This document shows positions 6,895 through 11,780 of a stretch of 16,650 nt of DNA, piece by piece (within the stretch, counting starts at the first letter, position 1; the number at the start of each line of letters is the position of its first letter). Both the position numbers and the translations under genes were made by a program. The notes below the pieces were generated by a model, which saw nothing but the letters and a program-made list of their open reading frames with translations, ran no database searches and was not told where the DNA came from. Origin of the DNA: a virus (taxonomy: Duplodnaviria; Heunggongvirae; Uroviricota; Caudoviricetes); IMG/VR virus record IMGVR_UViG_2737471869_000028, positions 1-16,650 of that record, one strand, 5' to 3'.

Positions 6895-7278
6895 ATGACA
6901 CGCAGAACTCAGTTCAAAGGCAATTCTCGTTCTCGTCGTCGTGAGCGTTTAAAGGCAAAGGCATTAGCTAACGGCGTACTGGCCCGCGAAGAAGCAATAA
7001 GTTCAGAAGTATTACACCGCCCAACTCTAAGTAGAGCGCAGATTCAGGCTAAAGGTACTCACGAAACGCCTGATCGCATAGAAGACGCTAAGCCAATTAA
7101 GTTCATGGCACAGGACGTGATCTGGCAGCAGGAAGAATACAGACGCAATCTGGAGCGAGCGGCCATTGTGTACGCGAATGAGTTTGGACATAAGCAACCA
7201 GAAACTGGTGTATGTCTTCCAAATGTAGCTCTTTACGCGGCAGGCTACCGGAAATCCAAACAACTGACAGCAAGATGA
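6895..7278 (+). CDS. N: N-type antitermination protein (P22 gene 24-like), 128 aa from the internal ATG
   Basis: Arginine-rich motif near the N-terminus (MTRRTQFKGNSRSRRRERLKAKA); C-terminus PNVALYAAGYRKSKQLTAR parallels P22 N (PGVALYAAGHRKSKQITAR) as I recall it; ATG at 6895 has a strong CAGGAGG Shine-Dalgarno, whereas the track start at 6829 has none. Confidence 0.8.
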   Translation: MTRRTQFKGNSRSRRRERLKAKALANGVLAREEAISSEVLHRPTLSRAQIQAKGTHETPDRIEDAKPIKFMAQDVIWQQEEYRRNLERAAIVYANEFGHKQPETGVCLPNVALYAAGYRKSKQLTAR

Positions 7279-7336: not shown

Positions 7337-7807
7337 ATGACAAAATCATGGAGCGTACCTTTTCCTGAATCAGAAACTGAACATGATGGAATGCCTGTTT
7401 TCTGGAGATTCCAGGCGACAGTTGAAGAAGATGGGATAAAAATATTCGCACTTCAATATATAGCTTTTCATCAGACAGAGCATTATGCATGGTTGGTTCC
7501 TGCGCATTGGATTGTTAATTTTAAACCAGCACCAAATCAGTGGTTACAGGAATGGAAACAAAGGAGAAATAGATATGCAATTAAGAAAGTAGCAAAAAAT
7601 GCAGAAAGATCTTTTGCATTCCCAACGAAGAAACTTGCCATTGAAAGTTTATTGCGCCGGAAGAAATACCATTTAATGAGAATCAAACAAGATTTGGCTG
7701 TTGTATCAACTCTTGTTGATGGTATGAAGAATATTGATACATCAACACCAGATATTGAATATAACTTTGGACACAACCAAGAAACAGAAAATTGGGTATT
7801 TTATTAG
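7337..7807 (+). CDS. Hypothetical protein (156 aa), AT-rich accessory gene immediately downstream of N
   Basis: ORF with GAGGTGA Shine-Dalgarno; no recognisable motif; occupies the ral/sieB-like position of the pL operon; composition looks AT-rich by eye. Confidence 0.5.
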   Translation: MTKSWSVPFPESETEHDGMPVFWRFQATVEEDGIKIFALQYIAFHQTEHYAWLVPAHWIVNFKPAPNQWLQEWKQRRNRYAIKKVAKNAERSFAFPTKKLAIESLLRRKKYHLMRIKQDLAVVSTLVDGMKNIDTSTPDIEYNFGHNQETENWVFY

Positions 7808-7911: not shown

Positions 7912-7936
7912 GCCCTCCAGTGTGAGGGCCTTTTTA
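7912..7936 (+). terminator. Rho-independent terminator (tL1-like) between the post-N gene and cIII
   Basis: Stem GCCCTC/GAGGGC (7912-7917 / 7924-7929) with 6-nt loop followed by CTTTTTAT. Confidence 0.5.
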
Positions 7937-8001
7937 TATGCATACCAATAACGCTTCACTCGAGGCGTTTTCGTTATGCAATCAAACAGAAGGAGCATCC
8001 T

Positions 8002-8172
8002 ATGCAACAGTTCGCTATTGCAGGGGCGGCATCGGTTCGCCCTTTCAACCCGATTTTATCGGTGCAGCATTCACGAAAAAACATTTTAACCGGAGCAGAC
8101 TTTAAACAACCAAGAATGAAAAGTTTGCTCGAAAAGCTTTGGGATATTTTGAAACAACAAGGCCGTCCATGA
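8002..8172 (+). CDS. cIII: CIII-like protein (FtsH-inhibitor family), 56 aa, below the ORF-track cutoff
   Basis: MQQFAIAGAA...SLLEKLWDILKQQGRP parallels lambda CIII (MQYAIAGWPVAG...RLIDILNQPGVP) as I recall it; AAGGAG Shine-Dalgarno 5 nt upstream of the ATG. Confidence 0.55.
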   Translation: MQQFAIAGAASVRPFNPILSVQHSRKNILTGADFKQPRMKSLLEKLWDILKQQGRP

Positions 8173-8276
8173 GTTTTACAGATAACTGGTCAGACGAAGA
8201 ATTCATTCGTCAGATGAACAAAATGCTCAATCAGCACAAAGAACAGGAGAAAGATGATGATTCTGACTCTGAATGA
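8169..8276 (+). CDS. Small ORF (35 aa) in the kil position
   Basis: ATGA overlap with the cIII-like stop (8169-8172); acidic C-terminus; weak ribosome binding site. Confidence 0.3.
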   Translation: MSFTDNWSDEEFIRQMNKMLNQHKEQEKDDDSDSE

Positions 8277-8565
8277 TAAGCGTGAAATATCGCAAATAAT
8301 CGCAAGTTTTACTGATGAAGATTACGAGCGAATCAACAGTGAAGTTGATCGCCTCTGCAAACGTTGCGACCCAATAAGCGAAATGCTTCGCTCATATAAA
8401 CCAGATGAACACACTAAGGACGCTATCGACTGGCTGGAAGATGATGACTGTAACTATCAGGAAAAAGCCGCTGAATGGTTCTGGGATGCAATAACCGAAA
8501 GAGTTAAGGCTGAATATGCCTTCGCAATATTCAAACGCAGACACATTTTTGGAGAAGCAGCATGA
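8254..8565 (+). CDS. Hypothetical protein (103 aa) upstream of recT
   Basis: ORF with AGGAGAAAG Shine-Dalgarno; its stop overlaps the recT start (ATGA at 8562-8565). Confidence 0.5.
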   Translation: MMILTLNDKREISQIIASFTDEDYERINSEVDRLCKRCDPISEMLRSYKPDEHTKDAIDWLEDDDCNYQEKAAEWFWDAITERVKAEYAFAIFKRRHIFGEAA

Positions 8566-9473
8566 GCAATATCGTTGAATTCGTTAAACAGCAAGAGCAG
8601 TTATTCTGCGGAGCATTGACTGAACAGACGGTGACATGGGCTAAGGAAAGCCAGTTTGCAATTCAGTATTTCCAGAAAAATGATTACCTGGCTAAAACAG
8701 CACTGGCAAATCCAACCAGCGCACAGAACGCCATCATCAATGTTGCGGCGATCGGCATCACCTTAAACCCGGCTAGCAAACTGGCTTATCTAGTTCCGCG
8801 CGACGGCATGGTGTGCCTTGATATCAGTTACATGGGATTGCTCCATATTGCAATGGAGTCTGGTGTTATCTCATGGGGTCAGGCAAAACTTGTTCATGCT
8901 AACGATACCTATGAGTCAAACGGGCTTGATAAAGCACCAACCCATAAATACAACGCCTTCGGTGATCGTGGTGATATCGTTGGCGTTTACTGCACAGTTA
9001 AGACGCCGGCAGGTGATTATCTAACGGAAGAGATGAGTCTGGCTGAAATTGAGGCTGTAAGGAAAACAAGCAAGGCAGCATTCAGCGATAAAGGACCATG
9101 GGTAAATCACTGGAATGAGATGGCGCGAAAGACGGTCGTAAAGCGTGCAAGCAAGTATTGGCCTAAGGCATCACGTCTTGATAGTGCTATTCACGTACTA
9201 AACGAAGAAGAAGGTGTATGGACTGAACCAGTTATGCCGCACAAATCAGAGGAAGATATCCGCGAAGATGAACGGAAACGCCAGCAGGAAATAACGGATA
9301 AAGCACAACTTCTTTGTGATGAAATGGCTCAGGCAGAAAACATGGATGATTTGAAGCGATATTTTGCAGAAGCATATCGCCTGACATCTGGAATGAAATT
9401 GCAGCAGAACATACAAGCCATTTACATAGAATGCAAAGCGAAACTGGAGGTTGCCAGTGAGCAAACTGTATGA
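8562..9473 (+). CDS. recT: RecT-family single-strand annealing protein
   Basis: 303 aa; GPWVNHWNEMARKTVVKRASKYWP matches the Rac RecT region GPWVTHWEEMAKKTAIRRLFKYLP as I recall it. Confidence 0.85.
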   Translation: MSNIVEFVKQQEQLFCGALTEQTVTWAKESQFAIQYFQKNDYLAKTALANPTSAQNAIINVAAIGITLNPASKLAYLVPRDGMVCLDISYMGLLHIAMESGVISWGQAKLVHANDTYESNGLDKAPTHKYNAFGDRGDIVGVYCTVKTPAGDYLTEEMSLAEIEAVRKTSKAAFSDKGPWVNHWNEMARKTVVKRASKYWPKASRLDSAIHVLNEEEGVWTEPVMPHKSEEDIREDERKRQQEITDKAQLLCDEMAQAENMDDLKRYFAEAYRLTSGMKLQQNIQAIYIECKAKLEVASEQTV

Positions 9474-9939
9474 AATAGCTAATGAATACGCAAAATTGAT
9501 GGATTCAGATTTAGAACCAGAGATGATTGCTGACACAATAGAAGGCATGGAAGGAGAATTTACCGATAAAATAGAGCAACTTCTTTCCGTCATTAAAAAT
9601 GAATCTGGTTATGCTGAACGCCTCAAGGAAGAGGCAAAGTCACTGAATGAGCGAGCCGCAGTAATTCAAAATAAGATTGACAGCATCAAATCATATATAG
9701 CGTCATCGCTTGAAATGGTTGGCAAGAAAAATATTCGAGCAGGTATTCACCAGGTAACAATCCGCAAACCGTCAGAAATTGTAGAAATCATCGACTCAAG
9801 CGCCCTTCCTCCTGAATACGTTGAGTTTGAAACGACAATTAAAGCCGACAAACTGGCAATCAAGCACCAACTAAAAGCAGGAATAAATATCCCAGGCGCT
9901 CAACTCAAGGTTGGGAAACCTTCACTTCTTATCAAATAA
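9457..9939 (+). CDS. Coiled-coil recombination-associated protein (Gp157-like / Gam-like), probable GTG start
   Basis: About 160 aa with a helical N-terminal half and beta-rich C-terminal half, the architecture of siphovirus Gp157-family proteins commonly found beside RecT; GGAGG Shine-Dalgarno 6 nt upstream of the GTG at 9457 (the track uses TTG at 9451). Confidence 0.4.
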   Translation: MSKLYEIANEYAKLMDSDLEPEMIADTIEGMEGEFTDKIEQLLSVIKNESGYAERLKEEAKSLNERAAVIQNKIDSIKSYIASSLEMVGKKNIRAGIHQVTIRKPSEIVEIIDSSALPPEYVEFETTIKADKLAIKHQLKAGINIPGAQLKVGKPSLLIK

Positions 9940-11414: not shown

Positions 11415-11780
11415 ATGGCACTGACGAAAAAACAACGTGCAGAGCTGCGCATGAAGTTCGGCGGTCGCTGTGCTTATTGCGGCTGCGAACTTCGCGAAAA
11501 GTGGCATGCAGACCATGTAAAACCGGTCATTCGTTTTGCTGGAAATATGCTTCACCAGGAACGTGACGATATATCCAACATGGTTCCGGCATGCCACCCA
11601 TGCAATCTGCACAAGCATTGCAGTAGCCTGGAAGATTATCGGCGAATTATCAGTGATGGGCGTCGTGAATTCCTTGCGTCCGGGAAAGGCAAAGCGCTGG
11701 TTCGTATGGGATTGGTTGAAATGAAATCTGACCCGGTTGTGTTCTGGTTTGAAAAATATCAAGAAGGGGCTACGGCATGA
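11415..11780 (+). CDS. HNH endonuclease-family protein (122 aa from the internal ATG)
   Basis: CAYCGCEL...WHADHVKPV...NMVPACHPCNLHK gives the Cys-rich HNH motif; AAAGGAG Shine-Dalgarno before the ATG at 11415; the track ORF start at 11253 lies inside the Ea22-like gene. Confidence 0.75.
   Translation: MALTKKQRAELRMKFGGRCAYCGCELREKWHADHVKPVIRFAGNMLHQERDDISNMVPACHPCNLHKHCSSLEDYRRIISDGRREFLASGKGKALVRMGLVEMKSDPVVFWFEKYQEGATA

What the first reader, a model, noticed from the sequence alone, without database searches (positions are those of the whole stretch)
8254..9939. Recombination module: RecT flanked by two uncharacterised partners, no obvious exonuclease
RecT (8562-9473) is translationally coupled to a 103-aa upstream protein and followed by a coiled-coil Gp157-like / Gam-like protein, but no lambda Exo- or RecE-type nuclease is recognisable in the window. 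The two flanking proteins are candidates for an end-protection or anti-RecBCD role, or the module may rely on a host nuclease.
Basis: partly seen in the sequence, partly recalled or inferred. Interest (0 to 1): 0.4.

Follow-up and report, generated by a model that had tools for sequence, protein, structure and literature searches.

The report
Exonuclease-free RecT module with Gam-like partners
This is the recombination module of a common lambda-like E. coli prophage, already catalogued in phage HK140: a DNA-annealing protein (RecT) flanked by two small proteins that probably shield DNA ends from the host nuclease RecBCD, one of which belongs to an unannotated family that looks like a distant cousin of lambda Gam.

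Summary
In the early-left operon of a lambdoid prophage, a 102-aa ORF (8257-8565) ends in an ATGA overlap with RecT (8562-9473). RecT overlaps a 160-aa Sipho_Gp157 protein (9457-9939) by 17 nt. No Exo, YqaJ or RecE-type nuclease is detectable in the window.

The module is about 97% identical to that of phage HK140 and lies full-length in 265 of 5426 complete E. coli genomes. Zheng et al. 2025 already describe the HK140 module as a RecT-type annealing protein plus a "MuGam"-type anti-RecBCD protein, with no nuclease. That part is known.

The new part concerns the 102-aa protein (phrog_3486, unnamed in Pfam, NCBIfam and PADLOC):
- It is always the first gene of the recombination module, in the lambda gam slot, and is coupled to whatever gene follows it.
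- Lambda Gam replaces it in phage Dewey.
- It is as acidic as Gam.
- It shares a collinear DDDxxYQExxAE motif with Gam.

I read it as a divergent Gam-like RecBCD inhibitor. RecT's C-terminal tail co-varies with Gp157, which suggests a RecT-Gp157 pair in which Gp157 takes the place of Exo. All functions are inferred from sequence.

The parts
8002..8172 (+). cIII-like gene (56 aa); marks the upstream border of the recombination module, as in lambda and P22
   Evidence: The same gene is annotated 'CIII anti-termination' in HK140. Relatives of the 102-aa gene are preceded by PF02061 Lambda_CIII genes. Its stop overlaps the ATG of the next ORF.
8169..8276 (+). 35-aa ORF (orf35) that overlaps both cIII and the 102-aa gene; function unknown, possibly a small accessory protein
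   Evidence: Matches phrog_17766 (5.1e-16) and the first 20 residues of phrog_2123 'recombinase'. Present in all 74 viral contigs that carry the 102-aa gene and absent from the two that carry lambda Gam instead. Its SDEEFI motif resembles P22 Arf, but it does not match Arf's PHROG.
8257..8565 (+). 102-aa acidic all-helical protein 'X' (phrog_3486); proposed divergent Gam-like RecBCD inhibitor. An alternative start at 8254 gives 103 aa.
8562..9473 (+). RecT-family single-strand annealing protein (303 aa): core about residues 1-225, and a C-terminal tail (226-303) specific to Gp157-linked RecTs
   Evidence: PF03837 2.9e-32, phrog_148 7.9e-92, TIGR00616 4e-23. The tail co-varies with the downstream partner.
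9457..9939 (+). Sipho_Gp157 protein (160 aa, GTG start): long coiled-coil helix plus a C-terminal beta domain; proposed MuGam-like DNA-end binder and RecT partner, sitting in the slot where related modules carry Exo
   Evidence: PF05565 2.4e-37 and phrog_253 5e-54. AF2 model pLDDT 84. 6 of 25 close homologues hit PF07352 weakly. Classed as MuGam in HK140 by PMC12315714.

Best explanation
This is an HK140-type recombination module of a lambdoid prophage. It is expressed from pL after N and cIII as one translationally coupled unit: orf35, X, RecT, Gp157.

RecT anneals single-stranded DNA; its family assignment is shown.

X is most likely a dimeric, acidic, DNA-mimicking protein of the lambda Gam fold. 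I infer that it blocks the DNA-end entry site of host RecBCD, which would protect rolling-circle tails and linear phage DNA.

Gp157 is most likely a coiled-coil dimer that binds DNA ends in the manner of Mu Gam. I infer that it contacts the RecT C-terminal tail, so it would occupy ends and deliver RecT there, taking the place that Exo or RecE holds in sister modules but without cutting DNA.

The single-stranded DNA that RecT needs would then come from replication forks and gaps, or from host nucleases other than RecBCD, such as RecJ with RecQ. This last step is speculative.
For: Module identity:
- About 97% nucleotide identity to phages HK140, mEpX1, Gally and Kapi1; full-length in 265 of 5426 E. 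coli genomes.
- Zheng et al. 2025 list HK140 as SAP-4 plus MuGam, with no nuclease and no SSB.
- In the HK140 stretches I read (record 22245-40710, from int through the early and lysis genes), no exonuclease is annotated.

X as Gam-like:
1. In 13 independent contexts, down to 24% identity, X is the first gene of the Rec module, usually just after cIII or kil, and its stop overlaps the next start.
2. The next genes differ: RecT+Gp157, RecT+Exo/YqaJ, DUF3799+RecT, DUF3799+phrog_11517, phrog_21613+YqaJ. X is therefore not tied to one partner, which fits a host-directed role.
3. X-RecT-Exo in ENT47670 and Midgardsormr38 mirrors lambda gam-bet-exo and phi80 gamL-rec-exo.
4. Lambda Gam replaces X upstream of the same RecT-Gp157 in phage Dewey and in 2 of 80 viral contigs.
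6. The profile comparison scores 21.8 (P 0.0016) on TKxAIxxLxDDDxxYQExxAE, and 0 of 150 shuffles reach it. Controls score lower: RacC 7.8, Abc2 9.8, Abc1 9.2.
7. Acidity matches that of Gam.
8. SEN22 carries X at 95% identity. Zheng et al. class it as lacking an anti-RecBCD gene, yet it has zero Chi sites, as inhibitor-bearing phages tend to.

Gp157:
- PHROG label and weak recurrent PF07352 hits.
- In Firmicutes phages, Mu gam and sipho_gp157 are alternative genes in the same position beside nuclease-less erf or sak4 modules (PMC8093625).

RecT-Gp157 pairing:
- RecT cores are 49-68% identical between Gp157-linked and Exo-linked modules, but the tails are only 13-21% identical.
- Tails of Gp157-linked RecTs stay 46-95% identical.
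- In L006 the core is 98% identical while the tail (69%) and Gp157 (65%) diverge together.
Against: - No experiment exists.
- X gives no significant HMMER hit to Gam, and the hhalign probability is only 16%.
- Two anti-RecBCD proteins in one module would look redundant.
- Tail and Gp157 co-variation could reflect physical linkage of adjacent DNA rather than protein contact.
Confidence: 0.55

Rival explanations
1. X is a recombination accessory, not a RecBCD inhibitor. It could be a small cofactor, chaperone or regulator of the phage annealing and exonuclease proteins, in the way P22 Arf or Abc1 help Erf.
For: X is always translationally coupled to the next recombination gene, and its conserved C-terminal codons form that gene's ribosome-binding site. 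It has no significant sequence match to any known inhibitor. P22 has small helper genes in the same region.
Against: X occurs with at least five different downstream partner combinations, including modules with no recognised RecT. SEN22 carries X at 95% identity, which is hard to reconcile with a partner-specific cofactor. Lambda Gam, not a cofactor, is what replaces it. The fold and motif similarity to Gam would be left unexplained.
Confidence: 0.2
2. X is an acidic DNA mimic aimed at another host system, such as a restriction enzyme or another defence nuclease. Its place beside RecT would be a matter of operon history.
For: Median pI 4.65 and net charge -9. Lambdoid early-left operons carry anti-restriction genes such as ral. 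DNA mimics of quite different targets can look alike.
Against: The adjacency and stop-start overlap with recombination genes hold down to 24% identity. The specific top structural hit and the shared motif are with Gam, not with Ocr or ArdA-type mimics. No PADLOC match.
Confidence: 0.1
3. Gp157 is not a MuGam-like end binder. It could be a non-catalytic adaptor that recruits a host nuclease or helicase, or simply scaffolds RecT filaments, so that resection is outsourced rather than ends being protected.
For: My direct comparisons with Mu Gam were not significant. Gp157 sits exactly where Exo sits in sister modules, and RecT's tail co-varies with it. Foldseek finds Gp157-like parts inside some phage PD-(D/E)XK and YqaJ-type exonucleases.
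Against: Recurrent weak PF07352 hits. Positional equivalence with Mu gam in Firmicutes phages. Independent classification as MuGam-like by PHROGs and by Zheng et al.. The two readings are not mutually exclusive.
Confidence: 0.25
4. The module is a decayed remnant that has lost its exonuclease and no longer works.
For: It sits in a prophage, and sister modules with the same X and a related RecT core do carry Exo.
Against: The same gene set occurs in isolated, plaque-forming phages: HK140, mEpX1, Gally, Kapi1 and Louie. All ORFs are intact and overlap in a coupled arrangement. 74 of 80 viral contigs keep the identical arrangement. It recurs at 34-65% protein identity in other genera. Zheng et al. 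count 84 of 246 lambdoid Rec modules without a nuclease.
Confidence: 0.04

Closest known systems
Phage HK140 Rec module (SAP-4 + MuGam, no nuclease, no SSB; Zheng, Casjens, Davidson, Amundsen, Smith 2025, Genome Res, PMC12315714)
   Same: The DNA is essentially the same: about 97% identity over the module, with the same gene order cIII, 102-aa ORF, RecT, Gp157, D5-like regulator.
   Different: The paper counts only the Gp157-type gene as anti-RecBCD and does not assign the 102-aa gene (HK140 gp42). Here that gene is proposed as a second, Gam-like inhibitor.
Lambda Red (gam-bet-exo) and phi80 gamL-rec-exo
   Same: Same operon position and order: a small acidic protein first, then the annealing protein. 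The phi80 RecT core is 60% identical to the window's. X-RecT-Exo versions exist in ENT47670 and Midgardsormr38.
   Different: The window has Gp157 where Exo would be. X matches neither PF06064 (lambda Gam) nor NF033500 (GamL). Phi80 GamL shares lambda Gam's N-terminal helix (hhalign 90%), whereas X shares only a C-terminal motif.
P22 recombination module (arf-erf-abc1-abc2)
   Same: An annealing protein with small partners aimed at RecBCD and no phage exonuclease; same place after c3 and kil.
   Different: The annealing protein is of another family (Erf). Abc2 modifies RecBCD rather than blocking it. X and Gp157 show no similarity to Abc1, Abc2 or Arf.
Mu Gam / Ku end-binding proteins (PF07352)
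   Same: Similar size and layout (a long N-terminal helix, then a beta-rich C-terminal part). Weak PF07352 hits in 6 of 25 Gp157 homologues. Same neighbourhood role beside nuclease-less annealing proteins in Firmicutes phages.
   Different: The window protein itself gives no PF07352 hit at E <= 10, so it is far below Pfam's threshold. Mu Gam belongs to phrog_491 and Gp157 to phrog_253. No Ku-like hit in my fold searches.

Membership tests
RecT family (PF03837 / TIGR00616) | Significant match to the family profile over the annealing core | tested here: met
   PF03837 E 2.9e-32, residues 31-217, above the cut-off. TIGR00616 82.4 bits against a cut-off of 52.65.
Sipho_Gp157 (PF05565) | Full-length match to the profile | tested here: met
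   E 2.4e-37, profile positions 1-162 of 162, 128.9 bits against a cut-off of 28.6.
Mu Gam / Ku (PF07352) | Sequence match to the Phage_Mu_Gam profile | tested here: not met
   The window protein has no hit at E <= 10. Six of 25 close homologues hit only weakly, best E 0.0034. hhalign against a 53-sequence Mu Gam alignment gives probability 0.4%.
Mu Gam / Ku (PF07352) | Ku-like fold of the core | tested here: inconclusive
Mu Gam / Ku (PF07352) | Binds double-stranded DNA ends and blocks RecBCD | not testable with these tools
   Needs gel-shift and nuclease-protection assays.
Lambda Gam (PF06064) | Sequence match to the Gam profile | tested here: not met
   No Pfam hit for X or any of 37 family members. 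hhalign probability is 16%, P 0.0016, over 28 columns only.
Lambda Gam (PF06064) | Gam fold: long N-terminal helix plus three helices | tested here: inconclusive
Lambda Gam (PF06064) | Strongly acidic surface (DNA mimic) | tested here: met
   X family median pI 4.65 and net charge -9; Gam 4.65 and -10. This shows composition only; the surface pattern was not examined.
Lambda Gam (PF06064) | First gene of the Rec module, after cIII/kil | tested here: met
   13 contexts. Lambda Gam occupies the same slot in Dewey.
Lambda Gam (PF06064) | Binds and inhibits RecBCD | not testable with these tools
   Needs biochemical or genetic assays.
phi80 GamL (NF033500, phrog_1050) | Match to the GamL model | tested here: not met
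   X has no NCBIfam hit, whereas phi80 GamL hits NF033500 at 4e-44. hhalign of X against GamL gives probability 4.5%.
P22 Abc2 / Abc1 / Arf | Sequence similarity | tested here: not met
   hhalign scores are 9.8, 9.2 and 16.3, with probability at most 3.4%.
Lambda Exo/YqaJ (PF09588) or RecE/DUF3799 (PF12684) partner nuclease | A gene of either family in the module or elsewhere in the window | tested here: not met
   No such hit among 20 window ORFs scanned. Relatives of the module do carry them.

The most novel reading that the evidence does not exclude
phrog_3486 is a third, so far unrecognised sequence family of Gam-fold RecBCD inhibitors. Gp157 is a non-nucleolytic replacement for Exo that binds DNA ends and hands them to RecT through a co-evolving RecT tail. 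The HK140-type module would then be a natural recombination system that works without any dedicated phage exonuclease.
Probability: 0.3. Interest if true: 0.6.

Novelty: new member of a known kind. Interest (0 to 1): 0.38.

Why it matters
If the 102-aa family inhibits RecBCD, three things follow.
- Published counts of which lambdoid phages carry an anti-RecBCD gene would need revising. SEN22, for example, is now scored as lacking one.
- It would add a new small inhibitor to the set that defence systems sensing RecBCD status respond to: retron Ec48 (from my own knowledge) and, from the papers found here, OLD and Gabija.
- It would point to a compact nuclease-free RecT set for recombineering.

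The RecT-tail/Gp157 co-variation gives a concrete, testable handle on how annealing proteins are matched to their partners. The module itself is common and already catalogued, so the overall finding is a modest refinement rather than a surprise.

Tried and rejected
- HMMER profile searches of X against PDB sequences and Pfam found nothing credible.
- NCBIfam and PADLOC gave nothing for X.
- X is not related to Rac RacC, which sits upstream of recE: hhalign score 7.8. It is also not related to P22 Abc1, Abc2, Kil or C3.
- tblastn of X against the phage collection does not reach phi80 GamL.
- The search for related loci with the wide X alignment failed for lack of conserved stretches. With the narrow alignment, the genome scan gave a single locus.
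- Gp157 fold searches were uninformative because the long helix dominates them.
- The Gp157 viral-contig scan returned only contigs at least 96% identical, so it served as a survey of arrangements and not for profile building.
- The supplementary tables of Zheng et al. are not held, so I could not see how they assigned MuGam to HK140.
- Chi count in the window is 0 against 0.35 expected, which is uninformative at this length.
- I considered the HNH endonuclease at 11415-11780 as the missing nuclease and set it aside. It lies three genes away near the int end, where Zheng et al. do not count such genes as Rec module members.
Full report
**Setting**

The window is one arm of a lambdoid prophage.
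- The integrase (14162-15232) and excisionase (13966-14184) lie next to a chromosomal pectinesterase-like gene that starts at 15367.
- A cI-type repressor (4241-4945) reads on the + strand.
- cro, cII, O and a DnaB-type helicase read on the - strand.
- The finding lies in the early-left operon, downstream of an N-like antiterminator: 6829-7278, PF25694 E 2.1e-15.

**The observation**

RecT (8562-9473) is a clear family member: PF03837 E 2.9e-32 and phrog_148 E 7.9e-92.

The upstream ORF ends with its TGA inside the sequence gcATGAgc, which holds the RecT start, so the two genes overlap by four bases. Its homologues start at the second ATG, which gives 102 aa (8257-8565).

The downstream gene is a full-length Sipho_Gp157 (PF05565, E 2.4e-37). 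Its homologues are all about 160 aa and begin MSKLYEIA. That fits the GTG at 9457 behind a GGAGG, and gives a 17-base overlap with RecT.

I scanned 20 of the larger window ORFs with Pfam, 10 of them also with PHROGs. None is an Exo/YqaJ, RecE/DUF3799 or other exonuclease. The only nuclease is an HNH endonuclease at 11415-11780. No terminator-like site interrupts the + strand between 7970 and 9940.

**How common it is, and what is published**

The region is about 97% identical to phages HK140, mEpX1, Gally, Kapi1, Louie and others. The 1.9-kb core is present at full length in 265 of 5426 complete E. coli genomes. RefSeq annotates it there as recombinase RecT, siphovirus Gp157 family protein and hypothetical proteins.

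Zheng, Casjens, Davidson, Amundsen and Smith (2025, PMC12315714) analysed the recombination modules of 325 lambdoid phages.
- They cite HK140 as a case where a RecT-type annealing protein (their SAP-4) works with no phage nuclease, no SSB and a MuGam-type anti-RecBCD protein.
- They note that 84 of 246 modules lack a nuclease.

The nuclease-free RecT module and the reading of its Gp157 gene as Mu-Gam-like are therefore already in the literature. In the HK140 stretches I read (record 22245-40710, from int through the early and lysis genes), no exonuclease is annotated. NinB and RusA are present.

**The 102-aa protein (X): family and gene context**

X belongs to phrog_3486, of unknown function. 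It has no Pfam, NCBIfam or PADLOC family. An exhaustive profile search found 54 representatives at 50% identity, nearly all about 100 aa.

I looked at the gene context of members from 95% down to 24% identity. In every case X is the first gene of the recombination cluster, usually right after cIII or kil, and its stop codon overlaps the next start by one or four bases. The genes that follow differ:

| Downstream genes | Where seen |
|---|---|
| RecT + Gp157 | window, locus of P0160, Enterobacter L006 |
| RecT + Exo/YqaJ | loci of P0172 and P0174, phages ENT47670 and Midgardsormr38 |
| DUF3799 (RecE-like) + RecT | loci of P0183 and P0187 |
| DUF3799 + phrog_11517 | SEN22 (X at 95% identity) |
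| phrog_21613 + YqaJ | locus of P0178 |

Three conclusions follow.
- X does not stand in for the exonuclease, because it often accompanies one.
- X is not tied to a particular partner.
- X sits where lambda has gam and phi80 has gamL.

In phage Dewey, and in 2 of 80 viral contigs that carry a near-identical Gp157, lambda Gam occupies the slot in place of X. In 74 of the 80 contigs the slot holds X.

**The 102-aa protein (X): resemblance to lambda Gam**

- An AlphaFold model of X (5 sequences, pLDDT 75) is all-helical, with helices at 5-16, 20-36, 39-46, 51-62 and 65-96.
- A profile comparison of the 37-sequence X alignment with 120 Gam sequences aligns X residues 52-79 with Gam residues 57-84 on a shared TKxAIxxLxDDDxxYQExxAE motif. 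The score is 21.8 and P is 0.0016.
- None of 150 column-shuffled Gam alignments reached that score (mean 11.2, maximum 20.1).
- Unrelated neighbours scored 7.8 (RacC), 9.8 (Abc2) and 9.2 (Abc1).
- The relaxed alignment is collinear along the whole length and also pairs LNDKRE with VQDRIE in the first helix.
- Median pI and net charge are 4.65 and -9 for X, against 4.65 and -10 for Gam.

Gam is a dimeric DNA mimic whose acidic side chains copy the phosphate backbone and whose N-terminal helix plugs the RecB channel (PMC5218532). Phi80 GamL, which Zheng et al. accept as a Gam-fold protein of different sequence, shares only the N-terminal helix with lambda Gam (hhalign 90% over 34 residues). X shares the C-terminal part.

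I conclude that X is probably a divergent Gam-like RecBCD inhibitor. The caveats are that the sequence signal is weak, the model is of medium confidence, and nothing has been tested.

One consistent detail: Zheng et al. score SEN22 as having no anti-RecBCD gene, yet it has zero Chi sites, the pattern they associate with inhibitor-bearing phages. SEN22 carries X at 95% identity.

**Gp157**

The model (25 sequences, pLDDT 84) has a short helix, a 68-residue helix and a small beta-rich C-terminal domain.

My own tests of a link to Mu Gam were weak.
- Mu Gam falls in phrog_491, not phrog_253.
- hhalign against a 53-sequence Mu Gam alignment gave a collinear alignment, but with probability 0.4%.
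- Foldseek on viral models returned Gp157 relatives and unnamed proteins.

Three things favour the link.
- Six of 25 close homologues give weak PF07352 hits (best E 0.0034). This is the most frequent family after Gp157 itself.
- PHROGs and Zheng et al. both label it Mu-Gam-like.
- In Firmicutes phages, Mu gam, sipho_gp157, DUF1351 and DUF2483 are alternative genes in the same place beside erf-ssb or sak4 modules. The authors take this to imply analogous function (PMC8093625).

**RecT and Gp157 as a pair**

I aligned 14 RecT proteins from the loci collected here and split them at residue 225.
- Exo-linked RecTs (phi80, ENT47670, Midgardsormr38, L008) have cores 49-68% identical to the window's but tails only 13-21% identical. 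Their tails resemble each other.
- Gp157-linked RecTs keep the window's tail type (46-95% identity).
- In Enterobacter L006 the core is 98% identical, while the tail (69%) and Gp157 (65%) have diverged together.

The mosaic joint thus falls inside recT, at the core/tail border, not between genes. This fits a tail that contacts the downstream partner, as Zheng et al. suspected when they wrote of shuffled partner-interaction domains. It suggests that Gp157 is RecT's partner in the way Exo or RecE is in sister modules. Physical linkage of adjacent DNA is an alternative reason for the pattern.

**Proposed mechanism**

After induction or infection, N-antiterminated transcription from pL expresses cIII, orf35, X, RecT and Gp157 as a coupled set (shown from the sequence).
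1. X blocks the RecBCD end-entry site (inferred).
2. Gp157 dimers bind DNA ends and recruit RecT through its tail (inferred).
3. RecT anneals single strands exposed at forks and gaps, or by host nucleases other than RecBCD (speculative).

The closest functional precedent for an annealing protein with RecBCD-directed helpers and no phage nuclease is P22 (arf-erf-abc1-abc2), although none of its helper proteins is related to X or Gp157.

**Verdict**

- The module as a whole is a known, common type.
- The modest new element is that an unannotated family, phrog_3486, is a good candidate for a third Gam-type inhibitor, and that RecT's tail and Gp157 look like a matched pair.
- Interest is moderate to low unless experiments confirm these two points.

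Noticed in passing
window 5082-6423 (+), terminator-like hairpin 6432-6451: A three-gene cassette sits between cI and N. It holds a HigB-like toxin (PF09907; PADLOC PD-Lambda-2_A, 2.5e-42), a 218-aa HTH protein matching only the first 125 of 402 positions of PD-Lambda-2_B, and a 134-aa protein matching PD-T4-9_C (3.2e-11), the third gene of that three-gene system. It looks like a hybrid toxin-antitoxin-chaperone type defence system carried in the rexAB position.
   Followed up: partly
window 8169-8276 (+): A 35-aa ORF overlaps both cIII and the 102-aa gene. It is present in all 74 viral contigs that have the 102-aa gene and absent where lambda Gam replaces it. It matches phrog_17766 and the start of phrog_2123 'recombinase'. 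Its SDEEFI motif recalls P22 Arf. Small overlapping ORFs also precede distant family members.
   Followed up: partly
window 8544-8569 and the matching junctions in L006-L018: The conserved C-terminal E-(A/V)-A of the 102-aa family is encoded by GAGGTGGC(A/G)TGA or similar. This doubles as the Shine-Dalgarno sequence and overlapping start of whichever gene follows. Part of the protein's apparent conservation is therefore a translational-coupling signal.
   Followed up: yes
Foldseek hits of the Gp157 model: Several phage nucleases align with part of Gp157: a PD-(D/E)XK protein of Tsukamurella phage TIN4 (398 aa, E 4e-3) and, more weakly (E 0.2-0.7), a RecB-like exonuclease of Arthrobacter phage KellEzio and COG5377/YqaJ-type proteins. 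This hints that a Gp157-like module is fused to exonucleases in some phages.
   Followed up: no
L018 (Salmonella phage SEN22) 3498-5196: SEN22 carries the 102-aa gene at 95% identity, directly coupled to a RecE-like exonuclease and a phrog_11517 protein. Zheng et al. list SEN22 as a prototype with no anti-RecBCD gene, no annealing protein and zero Chi sites.
   Followed up: partly
window 11415-11780 (+): An HNH endonuclease (PF01844 6.6e-07, phrog_2118 3.2e-56) lies between an Ead/Ea22 gene and a DUF551 gene, three genes downstream of Gp157. The longest ORF (from 11253) overlaps the Ea22 gene, so the real start is probably the ATG at 11415.
   Followed up: partly
window 7337-7807 (+): A 156-aa protein just after N has no Pfam family but is a full-length member of phrog_1636 (2.7e-112), of unknown function. 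It is also present in phage Dewey.
   Followed up: no
window 7912-7969 (+): Two terminator-like hairpins in tandem (7912-7929 and 7950-7969) lie just upstream of cIII. They resemble the tL1-type terminators that N antitermination reads through in phi80 and lambda.
   Followed up: no
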